From assembly GCF_000012925.1 (NCBI RefSeq), contig NC_007517.1:2970001-3002000 (forward strand): a stretch of 32,000 nucleotides of DNA. The letters run 5' to 3'. Below, in pieces: positions 6,741 through 25,597 of this stretch. The notes below the pieces were generated by a model. That model had not been told where the DNA came from. It did not search any database and worked only from the letters and a program-made list of their open reading frames with translations. How positions within the stretch are numbered: the stretch's first letter is position 1; every line of letters starts with the position of its first letter. Both the position numbers and the translations under genes were made by a program. Source of the stretch: Geobacter metallireducens GS-15. GTDB lineage: Bacteria > Desulfobacterota > Desulfuromonadia > Geobacterales > Geobacteraceae.

Positions 6741-6925
6741 GAGCGACCCTTTCAGCAAGCTGCACAATTAAAACATACACACCAATTGAATTAGATATCA
6801 CAAATAAAAATAAAGTAAAGTGATTCCAATATTATTTCTTAAAGCAAAAACATATAATTTCATCCTAAATTTCAGCAACTTCAACGCTATTTCCGCAACT
6901 AATTGACGTATTTTATTATGATTTC

Positions 6926-9246: not shown

Positions 9247-9282
9247 GTCCCGCCGCCGCTCGGGCTCGGAGGATAGACTGAT

Positions 9283-9711
9283 CTATCTGAGCCTGAGCGG
9301 CACGCTCCGAGAAGCCCTATCCAGCACTATCGCCGCAGCCTTGAATTTCGGCGGCCCCATCATCCCCCTCGCATCGTTCGACACGCCTGCCGGTTCCTTC
9401 GGCACCCCGATGAAGTTCCTGTCCAGTTCACCGTTGCCGTTCTCATCCTGAAACGCCGTCACCGCATAGACCCCGCGGGAAAGTCCCTCCACCGCCACCG
9501 TCATCTCCGGCCCGGAAACCGGCAGCACCCTCCGCGCCGCGGCTCGACGGAGATCGGTAAGAAAATGGGCCTCGTCGCCCCAGACCGTCACGTAAAGGGT
9601 CCCCCTGACGCCCCGAAACCCCGTGACCGTCACCAGGAGGGTTTCGGCGACAGCGGGCTTCAGTTGCAGGATCAGCAGGCATGCCACGAGCAATGCAGCA
9701 AAACGCACCAT
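9283..9711 (-). CDS. DUF2141-family secreted protein
   Basis: Only the last 142 codons of track ORF 9283..10911 are credible, starting at ATG 9711 (MVRFAALLVACLLILQLKPAVA signal peptide). FQDENGNGELDRNFIGVPKEPAGVSND...GPPKF matches the DUF2141 pattern as I recall it. It starts 23 nt after the cydC stop. Confidence 0.7.
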   Translation of the reverse strand: MVRFAALLVACLLILQLKPAVAETLLVTVTGFRGVRGTLYVTVWGDEAHFLTDLRRAAARRVLPVSGPEMTVAVEGLSRGVYAVTAFQDENGNGELDRNFIGVPKEPAGVSNDARGMMGPPKFKAAAIVLDRASRSVPLRLR

Positions 9712-9734
9712 TGTGTATCCCTTCTGTCTTCTCT

Positions 9735-11378: not shown

Positions 11379-13093
11379 GCCGCCACCTCTCCCGCCATGG
11401 CGGCCAGGAACTCCGCCGGCGCCACCACCCGCTCAAGACGCCCCCCAGCCATGACGGCGACCCGCGCCACCCTCCGGACGGTTTTTTCCCGGTGGCTGAT
11501 GACGAGCACCGTCCGCCCAGCGGCCAGCCGCTCCAGGGCCTCCCCCACCAGCCGCTCGTTCTCCGGATCAAGGCCAGCGGTGGGCTCGTCAAGAACCACC
11601 AGCGAAGCATCGCGCAGGAACGCCCGAGCCAGGGCCAGGCGCCGGAGCTCCCCCCCAGAGAGCCCGGCGCCCCGGTCCCCCAGTTCCGTGTCGAGCCCCA
11701 GCGGCAGGCGATTCACAAAGGCGTCGGCTGCCGCAGCCTCCAGGGCGGCGCAGATCTCCGCCCCGTCGGCGGTGGGACGGCCGAGGCAGAGGTTCTCCCG
11801 GATCGTCCCCTTGAAGAAAAAAGGGCTCTGGGGAACCCACGCGAGGCGCTTCCGCCAGGCAGCCGGGTCCAGATCGGCAAGATCGGCGCCGTTCACCGTG
11901 ATCCGCCCCGCCTCGGGACGGGCCAGCCCCACAAGGAGGCGCACCAGGGTGCTCTTGCCGGTGCCGCTCTCCCCCTCCAGGGCCGTGAGGCTCCCGGCCG
12001 GCAATTCCAGATCGATGCCGCTCACGCCTCCCCGCTCGCCGCCGTAGCGGAAGGTAACTCCCTCGAACCGGATGGCCGGCGGCCCCGCTTGAACCGGCAG
12101 GGTGCCTCCGTACCCCTCGGGCCCGGGAAGAGACAAAAGCGGCACAAGCCGCTCGGCGGCGGCTGTTCCCTGCATCCGGGCGTGGTAAGAGAGCCCGAGG
12201 GTTCTCAGCGGCAGGTAGAATTCGGGGGCCAGCAGCAACACGAAAAGCCCATCGGCGAGGCTTAGTCCCCCTCCCAGGAGGCGGAAGCCGACCACCACCG
12301 CCACCACCGCCGTACCGACGGTGGCGAAAAACTCCAGGGTAAAGGCCGAGAGGAACGCCACCCGGAGCACCGCCATGGTTCCCTGGCGATACGCCTCGGA
12401 GACCCGGGCCACAGCCTCGGCCTCGCGCCGGGCCGCGCCGAAGATCTTCAGGTCGGGAAGCCCCTGGACGAGGTCGAGGAGGTGCCCTGCCATGCGGGAG
12501 AGGCGCCCCCACTGACGGCGGTTGAGGATCTCGGAGCCGCTGCCGATGAGGACCATGAGAAGCGGGATGAAGGGGGCGGAAAAGAGGAGGACGAGACCCG
12601 CCCGCCACTCTGCCGGAAAGACGAAGAAGAGGGCCGTTGGTGGCAGCACCGCCGCCAGGGCCAGGTGGGGAAGGAAGCGGGCCACGTAGAGCTCCAGCCC
12701 CTCGACCCCTGCGGTCACCGCCTCCACGAGGGGACCGGTCTCCTCGCCGGCACGCCCCGCCGGCCCCAGTGCCTGGAGCTTGCGGTAGAGGTGGCTCCGC
12801 ACCTGCTCCTTGACCCGGGCCGCGGCGGCCGCTGCCCGCCGCTCGGAGAAGAAGACCAGGAGCCCCCGGGCAGCAGCCAGGGCGGCGACAGCGCCGGCCA
12901 GGGGAAGCACGGCGTCCAGGGTGGCGTTCTCGATCACCACCCGATGGCAGGCCAGCGCCAGGAGCCGCGCCTGGGGGACGGTCAGAAACCCGGCGACGAA
13001 GGCCCACCCCACGGCGCGGGCAAGCTTCCCCCTCACCCCACGGGCTGTGTCGAGGAGCCATCTTTCAGGGCGTGCTGTGTGGTCTCTGCTCAT
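11375..13093 (-). CDS. cydD: Thiol-reductant ABC exporter subunit CydD
   Basis: 572 aa with a TM domain plus NBD (GESGTGKST, LSGGELRR, VVLDEPTAGLD). It is translationally coupled to cydC. Confidence 0.85.
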   Translation of the reverse strand: MSRDHTARPERWLLDTARGVRGKLARAVGWAFVAGFLTVPQARLLALACHRVVIENATLDAVLPLAGAVAALAAARGLLVFFSERRAAAAAARVKEQVRSHLYRKLQALGPAGRAGEETGPLVEAVTAGVEGLELYVARFLPHLALAAVLPPTALFFVFPAEWRAGLVLLFSAPFIPLLMVLIGSGSEILNRRQWGRLSRMAGHLLDLVQGLPDLKIFGAARREAEAVARVSEAYRQGTMAVLRVAFLSAFTLEFFATVGTAVVAVVVGFRLLGGGLSLADGLFVLLLAPEFYLPLRTLGLSYHARMQGTAAAERLVPLLSLPGPEGYGGTLPVQAGPPAIRFEGVTFRYGGERGGVSGIDLELPAGSLTALEGESGTGKSTLVRLLVGLARPEAGRITVNGADLADLDPAAWRKRLAWVPQSPFFFKGTIRENLCLGRPTADGAEICAALEAAAADAFVNRLPLGLDTELGDRGAGLSGGELRRLALARAFLRDASLVVLDEPTAGLDPENERLVGEALERLAAGRTVLVISHREKTVRRVARVAVMAGGRLERVVAPAEFLAAMAGEVAA

Positions 13094-13184: not shown

Positions 13185-13224
13185 GGAATCAGGAATACTT
13201 CAAAAAAGAAAGGGGTGTTGATAC

Positions 13225-13812
13225 ATGAGACGGCATACGGAACTCAGGACAATGTCCCACAAAGACACTGGCGAATCGGTGGAACCCAGACGGACAACGG
13301 GATCCGGGACAAGTCATGAAACGAAGGGAATAACGAAGAGCGAAACAGAGGGGAGCAGCCGTGAGGTTAGCGTACTTTCCCCGATCAGGGAGATGGAACG
13401 GTGGTTTGAAGAGTCTCTGAGCCGTCCCTTCTTCGGCATGCACTGGATGCCGTTCAGACAGATGTTCTCGGAAGTGGGTGAACGGACCGAGTTGATGCCT
13501 GCGGTTGACATGTTCGAGGAAGGTGGACATCTGGTGGTTAAAGCCGAACTCCCCGGCATCACCAAAGAAAACCTCAATCTCCGGATTGTCGACAACAACC
13601 TGATCCTCTCCGGTGAGAGAAGCAGCGAAGAGAAGATCGAACGGGGCAACTACCTGCGGCTCGAACGGTCCCACGGCTCCTTCAGCCGGACCCTGAGCCT
13701 TCCCGATGGCCTCGATACCGAGCACATTAAGGCCGGCTTCAAGGACGGCGTGCTTGAGGTACGGATTCCGAGGACCGAAAGCAGCACGGTTCGCGAGATC
13801 ACCGTTGAGTAA
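13225..13812 (+). CDS. Hsp20 / alpha-crystallin small heat-shock protein
   Basis: 195-aa ORF. The alpha-crystallin domain reads (PAVDMFEEGGHLVVKAELPGITKENLNLRIVDNNLILSGER...SFSRTLSLPDGLDTEHIKAGFKDGVLEVRIP). The start could instead be the Met at 13252. Confidence 0.85.
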   Translation: MRRHTELRTMSHKDTGESVEPRRTTGSGTSHETKGITKSETEGSSREVSVLSPIREMERWFEESLSRPFFGMHWMPFRQMFSEVGERTELMPAVDMFEEGGHLVVKAELPGITKENLNLRIVDNNLILSGERSSEEKIERGNYLRLERSHGSFSRTLSLPDGLDTEHIKAGFKDGVLEVRIPRTESSTVREITVE

Positions 13813-13835
13813 TGAGGGCAGGAGGTGGAAAGGAG

Positions 13836-13865
13836 AAGGGGAAGCGAAATGCTTCCCCTTTTTTG
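13836..13865 (+). terminator. Rho-independent terminator of hsp20
   Basis: 10-bp stem AAGGGGAAGC / GCTTCCCCTT with loop GAAAT. The T-run extends to 13864. Confidence 0.7.
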
Positions 13866-13942
13866 CATCCGGGGATTGCGCTGCGGACCGCGGGGACGTA
13901 CAATCTGCCGACATATACTCCCAGTGCATGCAAGGAGTCCCC

Positions 13943-14380
13943 ATGTCCAACCTCGCCCTGTTTCTCCTCATGATGTGCGGCGGCACCGCAGTGGCGCTCC
14001 AGCCATCCATCAACGCCCGCCTCGCCCAGAAAATCGGAGTCATCGAAAGCTCGTTCGTCTCCTTTACCGTTGGAGCCCTGGTCCTCGCCGTGGCGGTATC
14101 CTTCTGGGGGCGCGGCAGCCTGCGGGCACTCTCGACTGCCTCATGGTGGGAGCTGACCGGCGGCCTCCTGGGAGCCGCCTTTGTCACCCTCACCATCGTG
14201 GTCGTACCGCGCATCGGCACCGCAGCGGCCATGGCCGCCATCATCGCGGCCCAGCTCACCACCGGGCTTCTCATGGATCACTTCGCCCTCTTCGGCTTCC
14301 GGGGAGCCCCCCTGGACGGCAAGCGGATTGCAGGGACGCTCCTCCTCATGGCCGGCGCCGCGCTGGTGTTCCGCCGCTAA
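13943..14380 (+). CDS. Small DMT-superfamily membrane protein (YdcZ/DUF606-like)
   Basis: Track ORF 13706..14380 trimmed to ATG 13943 (AAGGAG at 13932-13937). The product is about 145 aa and very hydrophobic, with 4-5 TM segments and a YdcZ-like pattern (INARLA...ESSFVSF...AQL). Confidence 0.7.
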   Translation: MSNLALFLLMMCGGTAVALQPSINARLAQKIGVIESSFVSFTVGALVLAVAVSFWGRGSLRALSTASWWELTGGLLGAAFVTLTIVVVPRIGTAAAMAAIIAAQLTTGLLMDHFALFGFRGAPLDGKRIAGTLLLMAGAALVFRR

Positions 14381-15001: not shown

Positions 15002-16855
15002 ATGAGCTACGAGTTACCAGCAAACGAACAGCTTTTGAAGTGGGTGGACGAAGTCAGGGCACTCTGTGAACCGTCCCGGATTCACTGGTGTGACGGCTCC
15101 CAGGAGGAGTACGACGAGCTGTGTAAACTGCTGGTGGAGAATGGCACCTTCAAGAAGCTGAACCAGGAAAAGCGCCCCAACAGCTATCTGGCCTGCTCCG
15201 ATCCCATCGACGTGGCGCGGGTCGAGGACCGCACCTTCATCTGCAGCATCTCCAAGCAGGATGCAGGGCCCACCAACAACTGGATGGCCCCCAAAGAGAT
15301 GAAGGAAAAACTCCACGGCCTGTTCAAGGGATGCATGAAGGGGCGCACCATGTATGTCATCCCCTTCAGCATGGGTCCCCTCGGCTCCCCCATTGCCAAG
15401 ATCGGCGTTGAAATATCGGATTCACCCTACGTTGCCGCCAATATGCGGATCATGACCCGCATGGGCAAAGCCGTTCTCGATGTCCTCGGCGGCGGCGAGT
15501 TCGTCCCCTGCCTCCACTCGGTGGGCGCCCCCCTTCAGCCTGGACAGAAGGACGTGATCTGGCCCTGCAACAAGGAGAAATACATCGTCCACTTCCCCGA
15601 GGAGCGCGCCATCTGGTCTTTCGGTTCCGGCTACGGCGGCAACGCCCTTCTCGGCAAGAAGTGCCTGGCCCTGCGCATCGCCTCCAAGCAGGGGAAGGAC
15701 GAGGGGTGGCTGGCCGAGCACATGCTGATCCTCGGCGTCCAGTCCCCCACCGGCGAGAAGACCTACGTGGGCGCCGCTTTCCCGAGCGCCTGCGGCAAGA
15801 CCAACTTCGCCATGCTGATTCCCCCGAAGCCGTTGCAGGACAAGGGATGGAAGGTGACCACCCTGGGCGACGACATCGCCTGGATCAAGCCCGGCCCCGA
15901 CGGTCAGGTCTATGCCATCAACCCCGAGTACGGCTACTTCGGCGTCGCCCCCGGCACCAACGTCAAGACAAACCCCAACGCCATGGCCTCCTGCTCCGCC
16001 AATACCATCTTCACCAACGTGGCCCTTACCGAAGACGGCGACGTCTGGTGGGAAGGGATGACCGACGAGCCCCCCGCAAAGCTCACCGACTGGCAGGGGA
16101 ACGAGTGGACCCCGGGGTGCGGCCGTCTTGCCGCCCATCCCAACTCTCGTTTCACCGCGCCGGCCTCCCAGTGCCCCTCCATCGACCCCGACTGGGAAAA
16201 CCCCAAGGGCGTCCCCATGAGCGCCTTCATCTTCGGTGGCCGCCGCAAGGACACCGTGCCGCTGGTCTACCAGGCCTTCAACTGGAGCTTCGGCGTTTAC
16301 CTCGCCTCCACCCTCGGATCCGAAACCACCGCCGCCGCAGTGGGAGCCACCGGCAACGTGCGCCGCGACCCCTTCGCCATGCTCCCCTTCTGCGGCTACC
16401 ACATGGCCGATTACTTCAGCCACTGGCTCCAGTTCGGCCGCTCCATCGCCAAACCGCCCCGCATCTTCAGCGTCAACTGGTTCCGCAAGGACGCCAACGG
16501 CAAGTTTATCTGGCCCGGCTACGGCGACAACATGCGGGTTCTCAAGTGGATCGTCGAAAGGGTCCAGGGAAAGGCCGCGGCCGTCGAATCCCCCCTGGGG
16601 TGGATGCCGCGTTACGAGGACATGGACTGGGAAGGGCTCGACATGACCCGCGAGAAGTTCAACGAGCTGACCTCCGTGGACCGGGAGGTCTGGCATAACG
16701 AGCTCGTCTCCCACGAGGAGCTTTTCCTCAAGCTCTATGACCGCCTCCCCAAGGAGTTCCTCCATATGCGCCAGATGATCGTTTCCGGCCTCTGGCGCTC
16801 GCCGGAGCACTGGGAGCAGATCGGCGACGTCCATCCCGAAGGGTGGAACGAGTAA
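15002..16855 (+). CDS. pck: Phosphoenolpyruvate carboxykinase (GTP)
   Basis: 617 aa with an AAGGAGG RBS. The sequence is GTP-PEPCK-like throughout (e.g. [14 protein letters not shown]-loop, GDDIAWI, NSRFTAP). Confidence 0.95.
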
Positions 16856-16876: not shown

Positions 16877-16916
16877 CAAAGGCCCGTCGGAATTTTCCGG
16901 CGGGCCTTTGGTTTTC
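16877..16916 (+). terminator. Terminator between convergent pck and the REC-histidine kinase gene
   Basis: 14-bp stem CAAAGGCCCGTCGG / CCGGCGGGCCTTTG with one G-U pair and loop AATTTT, followed by GTTTTC on the plus strand. It may act in both directions. Confidence 0.75.
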
Positions 16917-16939: not shown

Positions 16940-18130
16940 TCAGAGGGTAAAAAAGAACGTCGCCCCCTTGTCCGGTTCGGCTTCCGCCCAGATCTTTCCG
17001 CCGTGGCGCTGGATGATGTTCTGGGCGATGGCAAGGCCGACCCCTGTCCCTTCATACTCGCTTCCGTTGTGCAGTCGCTGGAAGACCGCAAAGAGCTTGT
17101 CGGCATACCGCATGTCAAAGCCTACGCCGTTGTCCCGGACAAAGTAGACCGTCTCCCCGTTGTCCGGAAACGCCCCCACCTCGATCCTGGGCACCTCACG
17201 CCTGCTGCTGTATTTCAGGGCATTGCCGATCAGGTTCGCATAGACCTGCCGCAGCAGAACTGGGTCGGCCTGGGATTCGGGAAGCTCGGCAACCGTAAAC
17301 GAAATCTCTTTCCCTTCATACTGCTCCCGATACTGTGCAAACGTTTCCCGCGCCAGCCGTTCCATCGACACGGGCATTTTGTTGAGGGGCTGGCGCACGG
17401 TCCGCGAGAGGGCGAGGATGGCATCGATGAGCTTTCCCATGTTGTCGCACCCCGCCACGATGCGGTGGAGCAAATTGCGGGCCTCCTCGTCAAGGGCCTG
17501 GGAATAGTCGTCCATGAGGATATGGCTGAAAGCGTCGATATGCCGGAGGGGCGCCCGGAGGTCGTGGGAGACCGAATAGGCGAATGATTCCAACTGGCGG
17601 TTCACCTGCTGGAGCTCCTCGGTCCGCTCGATGACCCGCTGCTCAAGCTCCTGGGCGGCAAGACGGAGCTGGATGGTTCTCTGGTCCACGAGCTCCTGCA
17701 GGTTCCTGCGATGCAATTCCAGCTCCATGCGCTGCAGGTAGAGATCCCGGAAGACCCGTACCTTGCTCCGGAGGATGGCCGGCTCGATGGGCTTGGCCAG
17801 GTAATCGACCGCGCCGGCGTCATACCCCTTGAACTGGAACTTCAGATCCTTCATCCCCGCCGTCACGAAGATGATCGGCAGATGTCTGGTCTTGGGGTTG
17901 GAGCGCATCAGCTCGGCAGTCTCGAACCCGTCCATCTCGGGCATCTGCACATCCATGAGGACCAGCGCGAAATCCTGCTTCAGCGTCAGCCTGAGCGCTT
18001 CGTTGCCCGACAGTGCTCTGACGAACACCAGGTCCAGCTCGTCCAGAAGCCCTTCAAGGGCCGAAAGGTTTCCCGGCCGGTCATCCACAAGCAGAATCTG
18101 CGGTTTCATTGAAATGAACTGTCCGTCCAT
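16940..18130 (-). CDS. Receiver (REC)-coiled coil-HisKA-HATPase histidine kinase
   Basis: 396 aa. It has an N-terminal receiver domain (ILLVDDRPGNL...VLMDVQMPEMDG...K), a coiled coil, an H-box SHDLRAPL and an ATPase G-boxes region (DNGVGF, GTGVGLAI). It is the last gene of the cheR/cheB operon. Confidence 0.85.
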   Translation of the reverse strand: MDGQFISMKPQILLVDDRPGNLSALEGLLDELDLVFVRALSGNEALRLTLKQDFALVLMDVQMPEMDGFETAELMRSNPKTRHLPIIFVTAGMKDLKFQFKGYDAGAVDYLAKPIEPAILRSKVRVFRDLYLQRMELELHRRNLQELVDQRTIQLRLAAQELEQRVIERTEELQQVNRQLESFAYSVSHDLRAPLRHIDAFSHILMDDYSQALDEEARNLLHRIVAGCDNMGKLIDAILALSRTVRQPLNKMPVSMERLARETFAQYREQYEGKEISFTVAELPESQADPVLLRQVYANLIGNALKYSSRREVPRIEVGAFPDNGETVYFVRDNGVGFDMRYADKLFAVFQRLHNGSEYEGTGVGLAIAQNIIQRHGGKIWAEAEPDKGATFFFTL

Positions 18131-18227
18131 CTCCCCTCCATTACCCGCGAGACAGGCTCGCCCCTTGGATTACGCTGACGGCCCGCGTCAGCCGGCCTCC
18201 ATGCCCGAATTCATTCCTGAGGCTCCG

Positions 18228-18812
18228 TCACGACGTTGCCAGCCGGACCAGAAGTGGCGCAATCCGCTCAAGGGGCACGATGTGGTCCGGTCCGACCGCC
18301 TCGACGGCGCTCCTGGGCATCGAATCGGCAACGGCGTCGGCAGGATCCTGCACCACCGTCACTCCGCCGGCATCCTTTATCCGCCCGAGCCCCCAGCTCC
18401 CGTCGCATCCCGCCCCGGTCATCACGACGCCGATGAGCGCAGGCCCGAAGGCGTCCGCCGCGGACCCGAACAGCACATCCACCGACGGCCGAGCGAACCT
18501 GACCGGAGGGTCCACCGACAGGGAAAGGGTGGCGTCCTTCTCAACCAGCAGATGGTAGTTGGGAGGGGCCAGGTACACGGTCCCTGCCGCAGCCTTCTCC
18601 AGCTCATCGGCCTCCTTGACCCTGATGGCGCTCAGCTCGTCCAGCAGGAGCGCGAGGCCGTTGTCCGCTTCAGGGGATATGTGGGCAACGACCAGGACCG
18701 GCAGGGGGAAACCCGCCGGCAGGGAGCCGATCACCTGTTTCAGCGCATCGACCCCTCCGGACGATACGCCGACAACCACAGCGCGGAATCTATGCTGACT
18801 GTTCCTGTCCAT
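18228..18812 (-). CDS. cheB: CheB-type protein-glutamate methylesterase, catalytic domain only
   Basis: 194 aa with GVSSGG (Ser nucleophile context), VVAHIS and TGAGCDGS motifs in CheB order. There is no N-terminal receiver domain. Its start overlaps the end of cheR by 23 nt. Confidence 0.85.
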   Translation of the reverse strand: MDRNSQHRFRAVVVGVSSGGVDALKQVIGSLPAGFPLPVLVVAHISPEADNGLALLLDELSAIRVKEADELEKAAAGTVYLAPPNYHLLVEKDATLSLSVDPPVRFARPSVDVLFGSAADAFGPALIGVVMTGAGCDGSWGLGRIKDAGGVTVVQDPADAVADSMPRSAVEAVGPDHIVPLERIAPLLVRLATS

Positions 18813-19632
18813 AGCTTTTCCGGTAAATCCTCATCCTCTCCACCGTTTCGGCATAGCGCGAAGCGATCCGCCTTCCGTCGAGGGACTCCTTGAGGCCAAG
18901 ACAAAGAAAGCCGCCGGGAATGAGACAAGTGTCAAAAAGCCGTAGTACCCGCTCCTTGAGGGTCGGCTTGAAATAGATGAGCACATTCCTGCAGAGAATC
19001 AGATGCATCTCCCCGAAATCAGCGTCGACCGCCAGGTTGTGGGAGGCGAACACGATCTGGTCCCGCAAGGATTGTATCATTATGGCATGCTCATAGCGTG
19101 CCAAGTAGTAGTCGGAAAACGCCCCCTTCCCGCCGGCGGCCTGATAGTTCCTGGTGTATTTCTGCATCTCCTTCAGGGGGAATATACCCTCCCGGGCATT
19201 CTGAAGCACCTCGTTATTGATATCGGTCGCATACATCCTGAAACGTCCCTTCATCCCCTCCTCTTCGAGGAGTATGGCAAGGGAGTACGCCTCTTCGCCG
19301 GATGAGCACCCCGCATGCCATATCTTGACGAAGGGATAGGTCTTCAGGTGGGGTACGATCTCTTCCCGCAGCGCCCGGAAAAATGCCGGGTCCCTGAACA
19401 TCTCCGACACGTTGACCGTGATACCGCGGAGCAGCGAGTCAAAGGCCTCGCGATTGCGCAAAATGGCGGCCTGGGCTTCGGAGAGGGTCCCATAGCCTGA
19501 GGTGGCGAACCACTGGGTAATCCTCCGCTTTATGGATGCCTCGGAGTAGTCGGTGAAGTCATGGCCGTACACCTGACGGACACCGTGGAGGAGCAGACGC
19601 ATCTCGATGTCGAAGAGTTCATCCGGTTCCAT
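18790..19632 (-). CDS. cheR: CheR-type protein-glutamate O-methyltransferase
   Basis: 280 aa with a CheR N-terminal helical domain plus a SAM-binding domain (IWHAGCSSGEEAYSLAILL, ATDIN, LILCRNVLIYF). The start codon lies 2 nt after the stop of the upstream kinase gene. Confidence 0.9.
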   Translation of the reverse strand: MEPDELFDIEMRLLLHGVRQVYGHDFTDYSEASIKRRITQWFATSGYGTLSEAQAAILRNREAFDSLLRGITVNVSEMFRDPAFFRALREEIVPHLKTYPFVKIWHAGCSSGEEAYSLAILLEEEGMKGRFRMYATDINNEVLQNAREGIFPLKEMQKYTRNYQAAGGKGAFSDYYLARYEHAIMIQSLRDQIVFASHNLAVDADFGEMHLILCRNVLIYFKPTLKERVLRLFDTCLIPGGFLCLGLKESLDGRRIASRYAETVERMRIYRKSYGQEQSA

Positions 19633-19634
19633 GG

Positions 19635-22600
19635 TCAGCTACCGTACAGCCATACCCGCAGCAGCGAAAGGAGCTTGTCCGCATCCACCGGCTTCTGGAT
19701 GTAATCGCTGGCCCCTGCCTTGAGGCACTCGTCCCGGTCACCCTTCATGGCCTTGGCCGTGAGGGCGATGATGGGGAGCCGGGCGAATCGCGGGTCTTTC
19801 CTGATGGCGCGGGTAGCCGCAAAACCGTCCATCTCGGGCATCATGATATCCATGAGCACCACATCGATGCCGGGCTCTCCATTGAGACGCTCCAGGGCCT
19901 CCCTGCCGTTTTCCGCCTCAAGCACGATCATCTTTTTCTCCGCGAGAACGCTGGAGAGGGAGAAGATGTTGCGCATGTCGTCATCCACGATCAGAACCTT
20001 TTTCCCCTCGAGCAGCGCCTCGTCGTCGAGAGCCGCGCGGATCATCCTCTTCTTCTCGGGTCCCATGCCGCTCTCCACCAGGTGCAGAAAGAGCGAGACC
20101 TCGTTCAGAAGCCGCTCGGGGCTCTTGGCCCCCTTGATGATGATGCTCTCGGCATAGTTGCGGAGCCGCTGCTCGTCCTCCCGGGAAAGGTCCCGGCCCG
20201 AATGGATTATCACCGGAATCCGCCGGCTTTCGTCAAGGGACTGGATCTTCTCCAGCACCTCGAAGCCGGACATGTCGGAAAGGCCCAGGTCAAGCACGAT
20301 GCAGTCGAAGGGTTCGACGGCCAAAAGCCCCATGGCCTCGCTTCCGGTCGCGGTGACCGTGATGGCCACATCGCGCACTCCGAGCAGCGCCTCCATGCTC
20401 TTTGCCTCGTTCCTGTCGTCTTCGACGATCAGGAGCTTCCTGACGCTTTTGGCCAGGGAGTGCTCGATGGTACTGAACACCTCGTCAAGCTGAGCACTGT
20501 TCACGGGCTTGGTCACAAATCCTATGGCGCCCATGGTCAGTGCCTTCTGGCGGTCTTCCAGGCAGGTGAGGAAGTGCACCGGGATATGCCGGGTCCTCAG
20601 GCTGTCCTTGAGGCACTTCATGACCCCCCAGCCGTCGATATGGGGGAGCATCACGTCCAGCACAATGGCGCTCGGCAGGTAATGGTCGGCAAGGGCAATG
20701 CCGCTTTCACCGTCCCCGGCAACCATTGCCGGGAAGCCACGATCACGGACCATATCCATCAGGATGGCGGCGAAGGAGAGATCGTCCTCGATGATCAGGA
20801 TGCTCCTCTCGCCGGGACGAAGCTTCTCGCGGTCGTCCGCCAGAACCGGCGTCGGGAGCTGAACATCCGCCTCCCTTCCGGAGACTTCCTTCCCCCGCGG
20901 CACCGTGACGGGAGGCAGCCGGGGCGCCGGCGGCGGCACGGCCGTTTGACTCTCCTCCCCATGGGCAGCGTGGTCCAGCGGGAGATAGAGGGTGAAGGAG
21001 CTCCCTTTCCCCTCTTCGCTTTCGAGAAGGACGTCGCCATGGAGCCCCCGCGCCAGTTGCCGCGAAATGGAAAGCCCCAGCCCGGTGCCGCCGAACTTCC
21101 GGCTCGTCGTGCCGTCCGCCTGCTGGAACGCCTGGAACACAAGGTCATGCTTGTCGGGAGAAATCCCGATTCCCGTGTCGGAAACCTGAATGGCAATGGC
21201 CGGGGCCGGCAGGGGATTTTCCTCTGAATTGGGCAGATGCGCCCTGACGGCCACCCTCCCCTCCCGGGTGAACTTGCAGGCGTTGGAAACGAGGTTCTTC
21301 AGGATCTGCTGGGTCCGCTGGCCGTCGGTGGTTATCTCTTCCGGGACCCCCTCCTCGATGATCGCATCAAAGTCCAGCCCCTTCTGCTCCGCGAGGGGGG
21401 AGAACATCGTGCGGAGCTGGTCGAAGAGGGCGCGGAGCGGAATCTGCTCGTAATTGAACTCCAGCCTTCCCGACTCGATCTTCGAGAGATCGAGGATATC
21501 GTTGATGAGGGTAAGGAGGTCGTTGCCGGAGCTGTTGATGGTGGCTGCGTACTCCACCTGTTTGTCGGTCAGGTTGTGCTCCCGGTTTTCCTTCAGCAGA
21601 GAGGAGAGGATCAGCAGGCTATTGAGGGGGGTCCTCAGTTCGTGGGACATGTTGGCCAGGAATTCGGACTTGTAGGTGCTGATCCGCTCCAGTTCGTCGG
21701 CCTTCAGCTTCAGCGCCCGGCTCGTCTCCTCCACCTCGCGGTTCTTGGCGCGGATCTGCTCCCGCTGCTGCTCCAGCATCTGGGCCCGCTCCTCAAGCTC
21801 CTCGTTGGTCTGCTGGAGCTCTTCCTGCTGGACCCGCAGCTCCTCGGTCTGGGCCTGGGTCTGTTCAAGCAGCTCGTCCACGAGCTTCCGCGAACGGTTG
21901 ACGTTGATCCCGATGGATAGCCCCTCCTGGGCCCGGCTGAGGAACTCCAGTTCCCGCGCCGTGAATTCCCTGAAGGAGCCTATTTCCACAACCCCCACGA
22001 GAAGATTGTCATGGAGCAGCGGCACCGCGGCGATGTTGAGGGGCTTCGCCTCGCCAATGGCCGAACTTATGGGGAGATAGCCGGGAGGGACATCGGCGAG
22101 GCGGATAATCCTCCTCTCCTTGGCCGCCTCCCCCACCAAGCCCTCCCCGAGGGCAAACCGCTTCTTCATATCCTCCCGGCGGGCAAGGGCGTAGGTGGCG
22201 GCAATCTCCAGATCACGGGTCCTGTCGTTGTACAGATAGAGGACACCGACGCCGGCCCCCAGGTATTCGCAGAGGAAAGAGAGGCTCTTTTCAACCATTT
22301 CCTCCAGCCGCCGGTCCCCCCGAAGAATGGCGCCGAGTTCATTGGCGCCACTTTTCAGCCAGTCCCGTGCCTGCTCCTCCTGCCGGTTCCGGCGCAGCGA
22401 GTCCGTCATCCGTGAAAATGCAGCGTCGAGGGATGCCTGGATGCCGCTCATGCCGGCCACCGCCCGGAGCATCATTCCGCCCTCGTCCCTGGCAACGGTT
22501 TCAGGATCAATCCGGAGCCGCTCCGACACGGCCACGTCCTGGGTCAGGTCGCCGGCTGCAATGGCCTCCGCCAGCCGGGCCTTTTCCGTCCCCGACTCTT

Positions 22601-23285
22601 CCATCCGGCGCACGGCATCGAGGACCACTCGGATGGGGTCGGCCACGCTCCGCGTGATGAAGAACGCCATGGCCAGTGCAATGGCGATAGCGCCGAGAAG
22701 GAGCGATATCAGCCACGAGCGGATATTGAAGTAGCCGGCGGTGCTCTGGTCGAGATGCTCGTCCCCTTCTTTCAGGCTGTACTGTGTGAGCAGCTTCGCT
22801 CGGTTTTCAACATCGCCGAAAAGAGTCCTCAGGTGCGCATTGTCGACAGTCAGCGTTTCGTAGTCAGCGCCTGAATCGGCCGCTGACTTGAGTCTTGCCG
22901 TCTCATCCATGTATTCCTTCGAGGCAGTGATGACATCATCCAGAAGTCGTCTCTCCGCAGGATAAATCGAAAGCTTGGCGTAACGTTTCAAGGACTCCTG
23001 TATGTCTATCGCTTCATGGTGGAGTTTCAACTCCAGCTCTTTGCGGTGCAGGCGATTCTCCTCCAGGTAGTTCAAAAACGTTCGGCGATGCTGCTGGTGA
23101 TGGCGGTCGATCATTGCCGCCGTCTCTATGCCCGGAATCAGGTGGTCATGCATGGCATCCAGATGTGACTTCATTTCTGTCAAACCGGTGACACCGAAAT
23201 AACCGATCAGGGAACTGAAGGCGATGACCGTTCCGTAGCCGAGAAGCAGCTTGTTCCTGATCTTCAGATCTGCATACCACCCCAT
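19635..23285 (-). CDS. Hybrid sensor histidine kinase: TM-helical periplasmic domain-TM-HAMP-GAF-coiled coil-HisKA-HATPase-REC-REC-REC
   Basis: 1216 aa with two TM segments (about aa 12-32 and 188-211) flanking a helical domain of about 155 aa, like a 4-helix-bundle chemoreceptor sensor. It has a HAMP domain (AAGDLTQDV) and a GAF-like region. Kinase motifs are H-box SHELRTPL and G-boxes DTGIGI / GTGLGLSI. There are three receiver domains (ILIIEDD..LDVMLP; LLIVEDD..LDLGLSD; VLIVDDD..LMDIMMPEMDG). Confidence 0.9.
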   Translation of the reverse strand: MGWYADLKIRNKLLLGYGTVIAFSSLIGYFGVTGLTEMKSHLDAMHDHLIPGIETAAMIDRHHQQHRRTFLNYLEENRLHRKELELKLHHEAIDIQESLKRYAKLSIYPAERRLLDDVITASKEYMDETARLKSAADSGADYETLTVDNAHLRTLFGDVENRAKLLTQYSLKEGDEHLDQSTAGYFNIRSWLISLLLGAIAIALAMAFFITRSVADPIRVVLDAVRRMEESGTEKARLAEAIAAGDLTQDVAVSERLRIDPETVARDEGGMMLRAVAGMSGIQASLDAAFSRMTDSLRRNRQEEQARDWLKSGANELGAILRGDRRLEEMVEKSLSFLCEYLGAGVGVLYLYNDRTRDLEIAATYALARREDMKKRFALGEGLVGEAAKERRIIRLADVPPGYLPISSAIGEAKPLNIAAVPLLHDNLLVGVVEIGSFREFTARELEFLSRAQEGLSIGINVNRSRKLVDELLEQTQAQTEELRVQQEELQQTNEELEERAQMLEQQREQIRAKNREVEETSRALKLKADELERISTYKSEFLANMSHELRTPLNSLLILSSLLKENREHNLTDKQVEYAATINSSGNDLLTLINDILDLSKIESGRLEFNYEQIPLRALFDQLRTMFSPLAEQKGLDFDAIIEEGVPEEITTDGQRTQQILKNLVSNACKFTREGRVAVRAHLPNSEENPLPAPAIAIQVSDTGIGISPDKHDLVFQAFQQADGTTSRKFGGTGLGLSISRQLARGLHGDVLLESEEGKGSSFTLYLPLDHAAHGEESQTAVPPPAPRLPPVTVPRGKEVSGREADVQLPTPVLADDREKLRPGERSILIIEDDLSFAAILMDMVRDRGFPAMVAGDGESGIALADHYLPSAIVLDVMLPHIDGWGVMKCLKDSLRTRHIPVHFLTCLEDRQKALTMGAIGFVTKPVNSAQLDEVFSTIEHSLAKSVRKLLIVEDDRNEAKSMEALLGVRDVAITVTATGSEAMGLLAVEPFDCIVLDLGLSDMSGFEVLEKIQSLDESRRIPVIIHSGRDLSREDEQRLRNYAESIIIKGAKSPERLLNEVSLFLHLVESGMGPEKKRMIRAALDDEALLEGKKVLIVDDDMRNIFSLSSVLAEKKMIVLEAENGREALERLNGEPGIDVVLMDIMMPEMDGFAATRAIRKDPRFARLPIIALTAKAMKGDRDECLKAGASDYIQKPVDADKLLSLLRVWLYGS

Positions 23286-23410
23286 AAATCTCTCCCCCGC
23301 TCACTCACGTTCTGTCCATGGAACAACAATTGTTAACCTTAGCACATATTACTTAATGAACAAGTCACACAATATACATCGCATTACTACACAATATGTG
23401 CCCACGCGCA

Positions 23411-23439
23411 GAAAAGCCCGTCAGATTAGTCTGACGGGC
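23411..23439 (-). terminator. Rho-independent terminator of panE
   Basis: 10-bp stem GCCCGTCAGA / TCTGACGGGC (23416-23425 / 23430-23439) with loop TTAG. On the minus strand it is followed by TTTTC. Confidence 0.7.
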
Positions 23440-24368: not shown

Positions 24369-24951
24369 GAATGTCTCCTTGCGCTAGTGTCGTCCCCCCT
24401 CAAAAGGTAGGGCCTGACGACGGTTTAGGGACTGAGGCCTTCGCTCCGTGCGGAGGGATTTCGGGCCTTGCTGCGGTTCTATGGCCTTGCCGTTCGGACA
24501 GAGAAAAGTGGTGCGAAGATCCCTTCGTTACAGCAGACAGGGTATCTACCGGGTGGGGTAAAGCGGTCCCTCTATGCAAAGACGAAACCGCAGGCGCGGC
24601 ATTGGAGCGGCATCACCTCAAGGAAGGCGGCACCGTCCTGGGAGCTGAGACGGATGTGTTCCCGATGGCTGCTGGACGGGGATGTCGTATGCCTTTGATC
24701 TGACAGAGTCTTTGCCGTGAAACGCTCTCTTTTACAAAAGCGATAGAGCACCGGATCACCATACCTGATTCCGAAAGGAGGGTGCAAAGGAAACTTTCGC
24801 CGTTTGCCGTAAACAGCCATTTGACGCCACCAATATCGAGGTAACACCTCTGAGCGATGACGGCGTATCAGGCCCTGGACTACATTTTGATGTCCTGAAC
24901 ATGGCGGCTTTTGCTGTGACCCTTTTATGCTTCCAGTGCATATATTCCACC

Positions 24952-24979
24952 TTGACAACATTTCTTTATCCGTTAAATT
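24952..24979 (+). promoter_or_regulatory. Candidate promoter of the TetR-family gene
   Basis: TTGACA (24952-24957), a 16-nt spacer, then TAAATT (24974-24979). It lies immediately upstream of the operator-like motif. Confidence 0.4.
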
Positions 24980-24981
24980 AG

Positions 24982-24997
24982 ACCAAACGGTTGGTTT
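24982..24997 (+). promoter_or_regulatory. Operator-like motif copy 1 (ACCAAACGGTTGGTTT)
   Basis: Imperfect dyad ACCAA-N4-TTGGT located between the candidate -10 element and the tetR RBS. It is 14/16 identical to the motif at 25622-25637. Confidence 0.5.
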
Positions 24998-25012
24998 TTG
25001 AGGAAATGCATA

Positions 25013-25597
25013 ATGAAATCCAAAGGCGAAGAAACAAGAAGCAGAATACTTGATACGGCGACGGATCTCATCCACCGCAAGGGCTTCGGGGCCACGAGCA
25101 TCAATGACTTGCTTGAGGCAACCAATATCAAGAAAGGCTGTCTTTACTTCCATTTTCCTGGAAAGGATGCCTTGGGGCTGGCCGTGCTGGAGAAGATGCG
25201 GGATGATTTCCTCGATGTTTTGGAGACCTCCCTGGCCGGCACCACACCGGGGGAGTGTCTTGATAATTTTTTCGCCACGGTCGCAGATGTACACAAGGGG
25301 AGGGGATTCGTCGGGGGGTGCATTTTTGGAAATACCGCCCTGGAAATGGGGGACACGGACAATCGTTTAGTGGCTATAATCAGGCAGGTCTTTAAAACAT
25401 GGCTGGGCAAATTGAAGACGGTTATCGCCGCCGCCCAGAACAGTGGTGAGGTACGCAACGACATCCCAGCAGACATCCTGGCCTGCCAGATGCTGGCCGC
25501 CATCGAGGGGGGTATAATGCTGTCCCGTCTGGAAAAGGATGAGAAGCCCCTGTGCGATGCCCTCGGCGCCTTACGGACAATGATGCGAGTGAAGTAG
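25013..25597 (+). CDS. TetR/AcrR-family transcriptional regulator
   Basis: Track ORF 24998..25597 (TTG start) trimmed to ATG 25013 (GAGGA 8 nt upstream). It has an N-terminal TetR HTH (TRSRILDTATDLIHRKGFGATSINDLLEATNIKKGCLYFHF). Confidence 0.85.
   Translation: MKSKGEETRSRILDTATDLIHRKGFGATSINDLLEATNIKKGCLYFHFPGKDALGLAVLEKMRDDFLDVLETSLAGTTPGECLDNFFATVADVHKGRGFVGGCIFGNTALEMGDTDNRLVAIIRQVFKTWLGKLKTVIAAAQNSGEVRNDIPADILACQMLAAIEGGIMLSRLEKDEKPLCDALGALRTMMRVK

What the first reader, a model, noticed from the sequence alone, without database searches (positions are those of the whole stretch)
16940..23285. CheR/CheB methylation pair wired into a two-kinase phosphorelay with no CheA, CheW or MCP
Seen: four same-strand genes are packed as one operon. 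They are a 1216-aa hybrid kinase (23285-19635), CheR (19632-18790, 2-nt gap), CheB (18812-18228, 23-nt overlap with cheR), and a REC-HisKA-HATPase kinase (18130-16940). The operon is bracketed by hairpin terminators at 23411-23439 (end of panE) and 16877-16916. The large kinase begins like a chemoreceptor (TM, helical periplasmic domain of about 155 aa, TM, HAMP). It then continues into GAF, a coiled coil, a kinase core and three receiver domains instead of an MCP signalling domain. CheB is the catalytic domain only (194 aa), lacking the receiver domain through which CheA normally activates it. Established: CheR and CheB methylate and demethylate (or deamidate) Glu/Gln on MCP cytoplasmic helices to give chemotactic adaptation. 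Inference: here reversible methylation probably acts directly on a histidine kinase, giving a two-component phosphorelay an adaptation or memory module. I do not know of a mechanistically characterised example of this cassette.
Basis: partly seen in the sequence, partly recalled or inferred. Interest (0 to 1): 0.75.

Follow-up and report, generated by a model that had tools for sequence, protein, structure and literature searches.

The report
Kinase operon with its own methylation enzymes
This Geobacter operon is a real but already-described type of signalling cassette: a sensor kinase encoded next to a CheR methyltransferase and a receiver-less CheB methylesterase that most likely modify a glutamate-rich helix of the kinase itself, as already shown for the related RsbK/RsbM pair in Bacillus cereus.

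Summary
Four tightly linked minus-strand genes of Geobacter metallireducens encode a 1216-aa hybrid kinase, CheR, a catalytic-domain-only CheB and a REC-HisKA-HATPase kinase. The 32-kb window has no cheA, cheW or mcp.

The cassette is not new. All four proteins are homologous (34-50% identity) to Pseudomonas putida CfcA-D of the named cfcABCDE cluster. The same cassette sits on Rhizobium and Rhizorhabdus plasmids and in many metagenome contigs.

B. cereus RsbK (CHASE3-HAMP-GAF-S-helix-HK-REC) is methylated on its signalling helix by the CheR-type RsbM.

The equivalent Geobacter helix carries three Glu-Glu-Leu triplets exactly seven residues apart (481/488/495; p about 5e-6 in shuffles), in a heptad phase relative to the phospho-His that linked orthologs conserve. 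EE-rich versions of this helix tracked cheR adjacency (16/16 versus 1/49 sampled kinases). They also occur in a kinase-less paralog and in 6/6 CheB-CheR fusion kinases.

Still untested: methylation in this cassette, the role of the dedicated CheB, and the output. Verdict: new member of a known kind, with moderate interest.

The parts
23416..23439 (-). Intrinsic terminator hairpin of the upstream panE gene (GCCCGTCAG-loop-CTGACGGGC followed by TTTTCTG). It marks the upstream boundary of the operon.
   Evidence: Sequence read. panE identified by Pfam ApbA/ApbA_C. Not detected by the consensus scan.
23286..23415 (-). AT-rich leader and presumed promoter region, with a GGGGGAGAG ribosome-binding site ahead of the kinase ATG.
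   Evidence: Sequence. No sigma-70 consensus match and no Rfam family. The promoter is inferred.
19635..23285 (-). HK1, a CfcA/RsbK-type hybrid histidine kinase of 1216 aa. Order: TM, 4HB_MCP_1 periplasmic sensor, TM, weak HAMP-like segment, GAF, E/Q-rich signalling helix, HisKA (His548), HATPase_c, then three receivers.
   Evidence: ORF. Pfam. 44% identity over 951 aa to P. putida CfcA. Receiver active sites.
21666..21878 (-). Codons 470-540 of HK1: a predicted continuous helix between GAF and the H-box, the candidate methyl-accepting 'S-helix'. Glu-Glu-Leu triplets lie at residues 481, 488 and 495 (nt 21789-21845 cover residues 481-499).
   Evidence: Motif positions. Shuffle control p about 5e-6. 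Conservation and heptad phase relative to the His. Association with cheR. Same position as the RsbK S-helix methylated by RsbM (PMC4574943).
21642..21644 (-). Codon of His548, the predicted phospho-accepting histidine in the H-box FLANMSHELRTP.
   Evidence: The H-box is identical to that of CfcA (His496) and, by primer-derived peptide, to the start of the RsbK kinase domain.
18790..19632 (-). CheR-type protein-glutamate O-methyltransferase of 280 aa, a CfcB/RsbM-type enzyme.
   Evidence: Pfam CheR_N plus CheR. SAM motifs aligned to 5ftw and 1bc5. 49% identical to CfcB. Below the NCBIfam equivalog cut-off for chemotaxis CheR (86 against 435 bits).
18228..18812 (-). CheB methylesterase/deamidase, catalytic domain only (194 aa, no receiver), CfcC-type.
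   Evidence: Pfam. Catalytic Ser/His/Asp motifs aligned to 3sft and 6ymz. 50% identical to CfcC. The closest 120 homologs are all stand-alone. About 130 of the best 150 cluster representatives are stand-alone.
18131..18227 (-). 97-nt cheB-HK2 spacer. A gap is present here in the Geobacter-type cassettes, while the genes overlap in the proteobacterial CHASE3-type ones. No special structure was found.
   Evidence: Sequence. Fold z-score +0.82. No Rfam hit. Comparison of gene spacing.
16940..18130 (-). HK2, a REC-HisKA(His189)-HATPase kinase of 396 aa, CfcD-type. It is the second tier of the relay.
   Evidence: Pfam. 34% identity over the full length to CfcD. A REC-kinase follows in 11 of 11 sampled cassettes with enough downstream sequence.
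16877..16910 (.). 15-bp GC-rich hairpin acting as a bidirectional terminator between HK2 and the convergent PEPCK gene (15002-16855, + strand).
   Evidence: Terminator scan, sequence, PEPCK Pfam hits.

Best explanation
This is the Geobacter metallireducens version of the CfcABCD / RsbK-RsbM type of two-component cassette.

HK1 senses a periplasmic cue through its four-helix-bundle domain, and possibly a cytoplasmic cue through GAF. It autophosphorylates on His548.

The signal passes through one long helix that runs from GAF into the H-box helix. That helix displays Glu-Glu pairs on its exposed face at seven-residue intervals.

CheR methylates one Glu of these pairs using SAM. This changes helix packing and so changes kinase output or the docking of the inhibitory receiver domains, as shown for RsbK/RsbM. 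The receiver-less CheB, which needs no CheA to switch it on, removes the methyl groups. Methylation is therefore reversible here, unlike in B. cereus. Feedback, if any, would have to come from the conformation of the substrate helix.

Phosphoryl groups go from HK1 to its own receivers and to the receiver of HK2. HK2's kinase then signals to an unidentified response regulator.

Shown here: gene content, homology and intact catalytic residues. Shown elsewhere: methylation of the homologous helix in RsbK, and CfcA-dependent activation of CfcR. Inferred: methylation of this kinase, the sites, the role of CheB, HK1-to-HK2 transfer, and any adaptation function.
For: (1) Homology of all four genes to P. 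putida cfcABCD. L102 carries all four published cfcA primers, and its H-box His is residue 496, as published. Identities are 44%, 49%, 50% and 34%. The domain architectures match.

(2) The same four-gene cassette occurs on plasmids of Rhizobium spp. and Rhizorhabdus wittichii RW1 and in Geobacteraceae, without cheA, cheW or mcp in the cassette.

[quoted passage not shown] Primer-derived RsbK peptides (LRSSKY|KSEFLA, IDLILMDIMMPE, SVWLIK) match HK1 at the corresponding places.

(4) HK1 has EEL at 481, 488 and 495. A chain of three heptad-spaced EEL triplets arose in 5e-6 of 200,000 shuffles of the helix.

(5) In all the linked orthologs compared, the EE pairs that form the heptad series keep the same phase relative to the His: offsets -67/-60/-53 in Geobacter and -95/-88/-81/-74 in the CHASE3 types, all equal modulo 7. 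Each helix also has one or two further EE pairs outside this series.

(6) In 65 sampled 'ANMSHELR' kinases whose downstream region is visible, two or more EEL triplets occurred in 16/16 cheR-linked and 1/49 unlinked kinases. Within the related E/Q-rich helix family the split was 16/16 against 1/9.

(7) Related cassettes encode a kinase-less paralog that ends directly after the same helix.

(8) 6/6 CheB-CheR fusion kinases from four phyla or classes carry 3-6 heptad NEEL repeats after the CheR domain.

(9) P. putida CfcB/CfcC have no chemotaxis role.

(10) The cassette, with cheR, occurs on Deinococcus plasmids.
Against: No methylation data exist for this cassette or for CfcA.

The helix does not match the strict MCP methylation consensus [ASTG][ASTG]xx[EQ][EQ]xx[ASTG][ASTG], and no loose match lies in the helix either.

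The helix core is shared with homologous kinases that have no cheR nearby, and some of these keep one EE pair. The difference is therefore quantitative. The cheR-linked kinases in the sample are orthologs of one another, so the 16/16 association is not 16 independent events.

In P. putida, mutants in the other cfc genes were reported (unpublished) not to affect the CfcA-dependent crinkly phenotype.

G. metallireducens has 18 MCPs that could in principle be substrates.

I could not obtain the RsbK sequence, so site-by-site equivalence is untested (one search failed).

No Hpt protein or output regulator is encoded in the cassette.
Confidence: 0.6

Rival explanations
1. The CheR/CheB pair acts on conventional chemoreceptors encoded elsewhere in the genome. 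The operon merely co-expresses an extra adaptation enzyme pair with a two-kinase relay, for example to retune chemotaxis under a particular condition.
For: G. metallireducens has 18 mcp genes and more cheR/cheB than cheA genes (PMC2577667; PMC2700814). Both enzymes have intact active sites. One related cassette (L139) has mcp genes on both sides. The helix does not fit the strict MCP consensus.
Against: The cassette is conserved as a unit across phyla and on plasmids without any mcp, cheA or cheW. The P. putida orthologs have no role in chemotaxis. The homologous RsbM methylates its neighbouring kinase. CheR scores far below the chemotaxis CheR equivalog cut-off. The cassette occurs in Deinococcus, a genus that by general knowledge lacks chemotaxis; I did not test this.
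Confidence: 0.12
2. Methylation targets a protein other than HK1. Candidates are the second kinase HK2, or an unlinked kinase-less helix protein like the one encoded inside related cassettes, with HK1 affected only indirectly through hetero-oligomers.
For: HK2 has an E/Q-containing helix (RTEELQQVNRQLE) just before its H-box. Related cassettes carry a roughly 790-aa kinase-less paralog that ends in the EEL helix, directly upstream of cheR.
Against: The HK2 helix is the generic S-helix 'ERT' motif, also seen in unlinked kinases (L023, L047, L027), and it is not conserved in CfcD. The kinase-less paralog is absent from the Geobacter metallireducens cassette. HK1 itself carries the conserved EE series.
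Confidence: 0.13
3. Methylation of HK1 occurs but is not an adaptation or memory device. It is a static or slowly set 'off-lock' as in RsbK/RsbM. CheB would act mainly as a deamidase or housekeeping eraser and would not be part of a feedback loop.
For: In B. cereus, methylation keeps the kinase inactive before stress, there is no cognate esterase, and relief is attributed to the receiver domain. Cassette variants without cheB exist (L032, L059, Deinococcus L132 and L133). The receiver-less CheB has no obvious phospho-feedback input.
Against: cheB is retained in 13 of 15 sampled cassettes where it could be seen. It also belongs to a very large, conserved stand-alone clade, which argues for a selected, regular function. 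It is established knowledge from E. coli chemotaxis that substrate-conformation dependence alone can give adaptation.
Confidence: 0.15

Closest known systems
Bacillus cereus RsbK-RsbM(-RsbY) module
   Same: A hybrid kinase with periplasmic sensor, HAMP, GAF, signalling helix, HisKA/HATPase and C-terminal receiver, encoded next to a CheR-type methyltransferase. The methyltransferase methylates the helix between GAF and the kinase core and thereby controls kinase output (PMC4574943). There is no Hpt. Boundary peptides match HK1.
   Different: RsbK has a CHASE3 sensor and one receiver, whereas HK1 has 4HB_MCP and three. RsbM is an orphan with no cognate methylesterase, whereas the Geobacter cassette has a dedicated receiver-less CheB. 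The RsbK partner is the REC-PP2C phosphatase RsbY, which controls sigma-B, and not a second kinase. I could not align the sequences directly.
Pseudomonas putida cfcABCDE (CfcA/CfcR); P. alkylphenolica bmsA cluster; P. brassicacearum genes 3082-3079
   Same: Same gene order and same four proteins, at 34-50% identity. The kinase has GAF, the EE helix and three receivers. CheB lacks a receiver. The second kinase is REC-HisKA-HATPase.
   Different: CfcA has a CHASE3 sensor. A fifth gene, cfcE (a single receiver), is present in P. putida and absent here. The known output in P. putida is the unlinked REC-GGDEF-EAL protein CfcR, and the stimulus is salt. Neither output nor stimulus is known for Geobacter. 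The roles of CfcB, CfcC and CfcD are uncharacterised there too.
Classical chemosensory adaptation (MCP-CheW-CheA with CheR and REC-CheB)
   Same: The CheR and CheB catalytic domains are homologous. The putative substrate is an exposed series of Glu pairs at seven-residue spacing on a coiled-coil helix downstream of a four-helix-bundle sensor and a HAMP-like segment.
   Different: The cluster has no MCP signalling domain, CheA or CheW. CheB lacks the receiver through which CheA activates it. The helix does not fit the strict methylation consensus, and the kinase C-terminus does not resemble the E. coli-type NWETF tether. The kinase is fused to the receptor and not coupled through CheW.
CheB-CheR fusion sensor kinases (CheB-CheR-helix-PAS_10-HisKA-HATPase-REC)
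   Same: [quoted passage not shown] This again suggests that the kinase polypeptide is the substrate.
   Different: The enzymes are fused to the kinase. The helix lies between CheR and a PAS domain and not directly before the H-box. CheR is only about 30-35% identical. I found no experimental characterisation.
KipF-PakF two-tiered kinase pathway of Sphingomonas melonis
   Same: [quoted passage not shown] By my recollection it signals to a second kinase that has a receiver domain, which is the HK1-to-HK2 logic.
   Different: I could not read the paper. As far as I recall, no CheR/CheB is involved. The relationship to HK1 and HK2 was not tested here.

Membership tests
cfcABCDE / bmsA-type cassette | Same-strand, tightly coupled gene order: hybrid kinase, cheR, cheB, REC-kinase. 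| tested here: met
   Window ORFs compared with L102, L009-L011 and L001-L003.
cfcABCDE / bmsA-type cassette | Sequence homology of each of the four proteins to CfcA, CfcB, CfcC and CfcD. | tested here: met
   BLASTP gave 44% over 951 aa, 49%, 50%, and 34% over the full length. L102 was authenticated by four published primers and by His496.
cfcABCDE / bmsA-type cassette | CHASE3 periplasmic sensor domain ('CHASE3/GAF hybrid kinase'). | tested here: not met
   HK1 hits 4HB_MCP_1 and not CHASE3. CfcA and Swit_5353 hit CHASE3. The N-terminal 284 residues do not align with CfcA. Desulfuromonadales relatives also have 4HB_MCP_1.
cfcABCDE / bmsA-type cassette | Fifth gene cfcE (stand-alone receiver). 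| tested here: not met
   HK2 is followed by a terminator and a convergent PEPCK gene. cfcE is present in L102.
cfcABCDE / bmsA-type cassette | Output through a REC-GGDEF-EAL regulator (CfcR) and c-di-GMP; salt as the stimulus. | not testable with these tools
   Only the 32-kb window is available. The PAS-GGDEF-EAL gene at 4275-6767 has no Pfam receiver hit, so it is not a CfcR equivalent by this criterion.
RsbK-type methylatable hybrid kinase | Domain order: periplasmic sensor, HAMP, GAF, S-helix, HisKA, HATPase, receiver; adjacent CheR-type methyltransferase gene. | tested here: met
   Searches compared with the architecture described in PMC4574943. HAMP is only weak. There are three receivers where RsbK has one.
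RsbK-type methylatable hybrid kinase | Glutamate residues in the S-helix are methylated by the neighbouring methyltransferase. | not testable with these tools
   This needs biochemistry. Indirect support comes from heptad EE pairs in a conserved phase. My recollection that the RsbK sites are Glu439/Glu446 (His minus 66 and minus 59, which would equal E482/E489 here) could not be verified in any text I could read.
RsbK-type methylatable hybrid kinase | Direct sequence homology to B. cereus RsbK. | tested here: inconclusive
   Only primer-derived peptides were available (KSEFLA, LRSSKY, IDLILMDIMMPE, SVWLIK). They match HK1. The attempt to retrieve full-length RsbK failed.
Classical chemosensory pathway | CheA, CheW and an MCP with a signalling domain in the system. 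| tested here: not met
   None among the large ORFs of the window or in the cassette. They are present elsewhere in the genome according to PMC2577667.
Classical chemosensory pathway | [quoted passage not shown] | tested here: not met
   The 194-aa protein is the CheB_methylest domain only. Its closest 120 relatives are all 181-220 aa.
Classical chemosensory pathway | Substrate sites matching [ASTG][ASTG]xx[EQ][EQ]xx[ASTG][ASTG], and/or a C-terminal pentapeptide tether. | tested here: not met
   The only strict match is at residue 773, in a linker. No strict or loose match lies in the helix. The C-terminus is ...RVWLYGS.
CheR protein-glutamate O-methyltransferase | CheR_N and SAM-binding CheR domains with conserved SAM motifs. 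| tested here: met
   Pfam scores are 27.9 and 137.2 bits, both above their cut-offs. The alignment to 5ftw and 1bc5 keeps the WxAxCSxGEExYS and CRNVxIYF motifs. The score is below the NCBIfam chemotaxis CheR equivalog cut-off.
CheB methylesterase/deamidase | Catalytic domain with the Ser-His-Asp triad. | tested here: met
   Pfam 190.5 bits. GVSSGG, AHIS and GAGCDG align with the corresponding motifs of 3sft and 6ymz. The identity of the triad residues rests on general knowledge of CheB.

The most novel reading that the evidence does not exclude
The Glu-Glu heptad helix is a portable methyl-accepting module that gives ordinary two-component kinases a CheA-independent, fully reversible adaptation system.

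The same module would be used in three settings: CfcA/RsbK-type kinases, kinase-less sensor paralogs that end in the helix, and CheB-CheR fusion kinases. A very large clade of receiver-less CheB enzymes would serve as its dedicated erasers. Feedback would come only from the conformation of the helix.

The Geobacter cassette, with both writer and eraser and a second-tier kinase, would then be a minimal 'chemotaxis-like memory' built into a phosphorelay.
Probability: 0.35. Interest if true: 0.7.

Novelty: new member of a known kind. Interest (0 to 1): 0.42.

Why it matters
Reversible glutamate methylation is the textbook memory device of bacterial chemotaxis. Outside chemoreceptors it has been shown for essentially one kinase, RsbK, and there without an eraser.

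The cassette studied here is widespread:
- It occurs in Geobacteraceae, Pseudomonas, Rhizobiales, Sphingomonadales and Deinococcus, and in many soil metagenome contigs.
- Receiver-less CheB relatives number 1,179 cluster representatives at E ≤ 1e-30.
- It carries both writer and eraser.

If the conserved Glu-Glu helix is confirmed as the substrate, many two-component systems that control biofilm, c-di-GMP and stress responses would have an adaptation layer that current models ignore.

For Geobacter specifically, it would identify what some of the 'excess' cheR/cheB genes noted in comparative genomics are for.

The practical gain from this analysis is a concrete, testable site prediction (E481/482, E488/489, E495/496 of HK1) and a link between three literatures (Cfc, Bms, RsbK) that do not cite each other in the Cfc and RsbK papers I could read.

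Tried and rejected
- **L004 as a fusion-type relative.** It is a classical CheA-CheY-CheB(REC)-CheR cluster and served only as an outgroup.
- **HK2's 'TEELQQVN' as a second methylation helix.** Rejected. It is the generic S-helix ERT motif, also present in unlinked kinases, and it is not conserved in CfcD.
- **An RNA element in the cheB-HK2 spacer or the leader.** No Rfam match in the window. The spacer folds no better than shuffles (z = +0.82).
- **The weak MCPsignal hit to the helix** (E 0.02). Dismissed as one of dozens of coiled-coil chance matches.
- **Stand-alone 'CheB' genes in Hymenobacter, Deinococcus plasmid 1 and a Comamonadaceae plasmid.** These are a different family, with a CheB domain plus a Cys/His-rich C-terminal module, and not this cassette.
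- **Metagenome scan with the cfcA H-box 24-mer.** It returned mostly unrelated kinases. I repurposed these as a sample for the association test.
- **Retrieving B. cereus RsbK with concatenated primer-derived peptides.** This failed and gave only H-box fragments.
- **Papers I could not read.** Garcia-Fontana 2013, Tagua 2022, Kaczmarczyk 2015, de Been 2011 and Chen 2012 were not held.
- **Literature searches that gave nothing.** Searches for fusion-protein terms and for 'methylation of the kinase' returned noise or nothing.
- **Papers that did not bear on the cassette.** The Halomonas and CheR-TPR papers were not relevant. The 2008 Geobacter che survey defines clusters as three or more che genes, and the sections I read do not describe this cassette.

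Full report
**1. The observation**

Pfam confirms the assignments:
- HK1 (23285-19635, 1216 aa) has 4HB_MCP_1, GAF, HisKA, HATPase_c and three receiver domains.
- The 280-aa protein has CheR_N plus CheR.
- The 194-aa protein is a CheB methylesterase domain and nothing else.
- HK2 (18130-16940) is REC-HisKA-HATPase.

The catalytic motifs of CheB and CheR align with solved structures. All four receivers keep the phospho-acceptor pocket.

HAMP is only a weak, sub-threshold partial hit.

The upstream neighbour is panE, with its own terminator hairpin. The downstream neighbour is a convergent GTP-PEPCK gene that shares a 15-bp bidirectional hairpin with HK2.

None of the other large ORFs in the window is a cheA, cheW or mcp. 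Rfam finds nothing in the window.

The CheB is 100% identical to a Geobacter metallireducens protein. The whole cassette is syntenic in G. hydrogenophilus, an uncultured Geobacter and a Geoanaerobacter.

**2. The cassette is already named**

A literature search led to the P. putida KT2440 cluster cfcABCDE. There cfcA (PP_3761) is a CHASE3/GAF hybrid kinase needed to activate the diguanylate cyclase CfcR. cfcB and cfcC are a CheR/CheB pair with no role in chemotaxis. cfcD carries a receiver (PMC4951495). Salt is the stimulus.

To test the link directly, I scanned metagenomes for the wild-type sequence implied by the published His496 mutagenesis primers. Locus L102 contains all four published cfcA primers. 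Its kinase is 1155 aa with the H-box His at residue 496. It is followed by genes for CheR (273 aa), receiver-less CheB (191 aa), REC-HisKA-HATPase (408 aa) and a single receiver.

The Geobacter proteins are 44% (over 951 aa), 49%, 50% and 34% identical to CfcA, CfcB, CfcC and CfcD.

There are two differences. The periplasmic sensor is 4HB_MCP_1 here and CHASE3 in P. putida. Geobacter has no cfcE.

The same cluster is noted around bmsA in P. alkylphenolica and around gene 3082 in P. brassicacearum (PMC8175716).

**3. Distribution**

Annotated plasmids of Rhizobium spp. and Rhizorhabdus wittichii RW1 (Swit_5353-5356) carry the identical four-gene arrangement.

Of the 120 kinase loci returned by the metagenome scan, 21 had a cheR hit, and 20 of those were above 40% identity. 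Where the sequence reaches far enough, cheB follows in 13 of 15 loci and a REC-kinase follows in 11 of 11.

Two Pseudomonas-like loci (L032, L059) and two Deinococcus plasmids have kinase, cheR and REC-kinase without cheB.

The receiver-less CheB belongs to a very large clade. All 120 best hits are 181-220 aa. In an exhaustive search of 1.84 billion cluster representatives, 1,179 scored E ≤ 1e-30, and about 130 of the best 150 are stand-alone.

**4. Precedent for the proposed mechanism**

This has been demonstrated for a homologous system.

B. cereus RsbK has the domain order CHASE3, HAMP, GAF, S-helix, HK, CA, REC. It is methylated on its signalling helix by the CheR-type RsbM, which is encoded in the same operon, and this keeps sigma-B signalling off (PMC4574943).

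Those authors stress that RsbM is an orphan methyltransferase with no cognate esterase. They also report 127 RsbK-like kinases in 10 phyla.

I could not obtain the RsbK sequence. Peptides encoded by their primers place the S-helix between '...NLGLTIH|SIMGRM' and 'LRSSKY|KSEFLA'. They also give 'IDLILMDIMMPE' around Asp827 and 'SVWLIK' at the C-terminus. These correspond to 'ISTYKSEFLANMSH', 'IDVVLMDIMMPE' and 'RVWLYGS' in HK1.

The GAF-to-H-box helix of HK1 is therefore the positional equivalent of the methylated RsbK helix.

**5. The helix**

HK1 residues 470-540 read ...QTQAQTEELRVQQEELQQTNEELEERAQMLEQQREQ..., with EEL at 481, 488 and 495. Leu483, 490, 497, 504 and Ile511 form one core position. 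The Glu pairs therefore lie on the exposed face; this register is my own reading of the sequence.

Three heptad-spaced EEL triplets arose in 5e-6 of 200,000 shuffles of the helix itself.

In the linked orthologs compared, the EE pairs of the heptad series keep one phase relative to the phospho-His. Offsets are -67/-60/-53 in Geobacter and -95/-88/-81/-74 in the CHASE3-type kinases, all equal modulo 7. Length differences between lineages are thus whole heptads. Each helix also carries one or two EE pairs outside this series.

In 65 sampled kinases with an identical H-box and a visible downstream region, two or more EEL triplets were found in 16/16 cheR-linked and 1/49 unlinked kinases (Fisher p = 2.6e-14). 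Within the homologous E/Q-rich helix family the split was 16/16 against 1/9.

Two caveats apply. The linked kinases are orthologs of one another, so these are not independent events. The unlinked relatives share the helix core and often keep one EE pair, so the contrast is one of degree.

The strict MCP consensus is not met in the helix.

**6. Independent support**

In Desulfuromonadales-type relatives, the cassette contains an extra gene of about 790 aa between the kinase and cheR. Its product has TM, a large periplasmic domain, TM, a HAMP-like segment, GAF and the same 'AEELRVQQEELQQTNEELEERA' helix, and then it stops. There is no kinase. The helix is therefore kept as a module in its own right next to cheR.

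All six CheB-CheR fusion kinases examined have 3-6 consecutive heptad NEEL repeats just after the CheR domain, for example 'NEELQSTNEELETAKEEIQATNEELNTTNEEL'. They come from Acidiphilium, Methylocystis, Sphingomonas, Paraburkholderia, Chondrinema and Nostoc, and their CheR is only about 30-35% identical to ours. 'STNEELQS' fits the loose MCP consensus.

The Deinococcus cassettes also have 'QQEELRQTNEEL'.

**7. Most likely mechanism**

HK1 senses through its periplasmic four-helix bundle, and perhaps through GAF. CheR methylates exposed Glu residues of the signalling helix. CheB, which has no inhibitory receiver and so does not depend on CheA, removes the methyl groups.

Methylation state changes helix packing, and with it the kinase/phosphatase balance or receiver docking, as in RsbK.

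Phosphoryl groups pass to HK1's receivers and to the receiver of HK2. That receiver is 38-39% identical to HK1 REC3 and 49% identical to CfcA REC3. HK2 then signals to an unknown regulator.

The only parts that are shown are homology, intact active sites and the precedent. Methylation of this protein, the sites, reversibility, HK1-to-HK2 transfer and any adaptation behaviour are inferred. I put 0.6 on 'HK1's helix is the CheR/CheB substrate'.

**8. Verdict**

The cassette is a new member of a known kind, the Cfc/Bms cassette, which is related to RsbK/RsbM. It has a swapped sensor domain and no cfcE.

The role of the dedicated CheB and the idea of a reversible methyl-accepting helix in two-component kinases do remain open, and they are now sharply testable.

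Noticed in passing
L136 3804-6164; L139 3821-6184; L142 3810-6191: A protein of about 790 aa is encoded between the big kinase and cheR in Desulfuromonadales-type cassettes. It has TM, a periplasmic domain of about 450 aa, TM, a HAMP-like segment, GAF and the EEL heptad helix, and then it ends with no kinase domain. It may be a dedicated methyl-accepting partner or a hetero-dimerising partner of the kinase.
   Followed up: partly
L006 6920-7996; L007 6950-7990; L008 6953-7936 and 12806-13822: A separate family of receiver-less CheB proteins carries a C-terminal module of about 150 aa with a Cys/His pattern (TCPDCHG...RFRCHTGHAY) that Pfam does not recognise. In Hymenobacter and Deinococcus deserti the gene lies next to a PAS kinase. 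The Hymenobacter kinase starts with an 'ATNEELAASN' helix.
   Followed up: partly
L059 4675-10801; L032; L132 3047-12381; L133: Cassette variants have kinase, cheR and REC-kinase but no cheB. They occur in Pseudomonas-like metagenome contigs and in two Deinococcus plasmids. In D. deserti the big kinase has 6-7 HAMP repeats, and a GAF-GGDEF gene follows.
   Followed up: partly
window 4275-6767 (- strand): A PAS-GGDEF-EAL protein of 830 aa is encoded about 10 kb from the cassette. It has no Pfam receiver hit, so it is not an obvious CfcR equivalent, but it is a c-di-GMP enzyme in the neighbourhood.
   Followed up: no
window 9000-13000: This stretch has a markedly higher G+C content (0.67-0.73 against about 0.60 elsewhere). 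It contains two adjacent ABC exporter genes (9735-11378 and 11375-13093, - strand) and a DUF2141 hit at the C-terminal end of an overlapping ORF (9283-10911). It may be acquired DNA.
   Followed up: no
L005 994-6120: In Rhizobium oryzihabitans plasmid p1, the big kinase of the cassette is present only as an 800-aa 3' ORF in a stretch with no listed gene, just downstream of an IS701 transposase. It is apparently truncated or a pseudogene. There the REC-kinase has an extra C-terminal receiver, and a small receiver gene lies on the opposite strand.
   Followed up: partly
window 13189-14274 (-) and 24572-25294 (-): Two sizeable ORFs (361 and 240 aa) have no Pfam match. The first is conserved in G. 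hydrogenophilus at about 76% identity, but there it aligns in two pieces.
   Followed up: no
L016, L033, L044, L090, L018, L046, L086, L103, L119: A family of very large (1300-1940 aa) kinases has a homologous pre-H-box helix ('TELQTQQKELQQTNEQL') but no cheR or cheB within up to 9.5 kb downstream. They are the nearest unlinked relatives, and most have lost one or both Glu-Glu pairs.
   Followed up: partly
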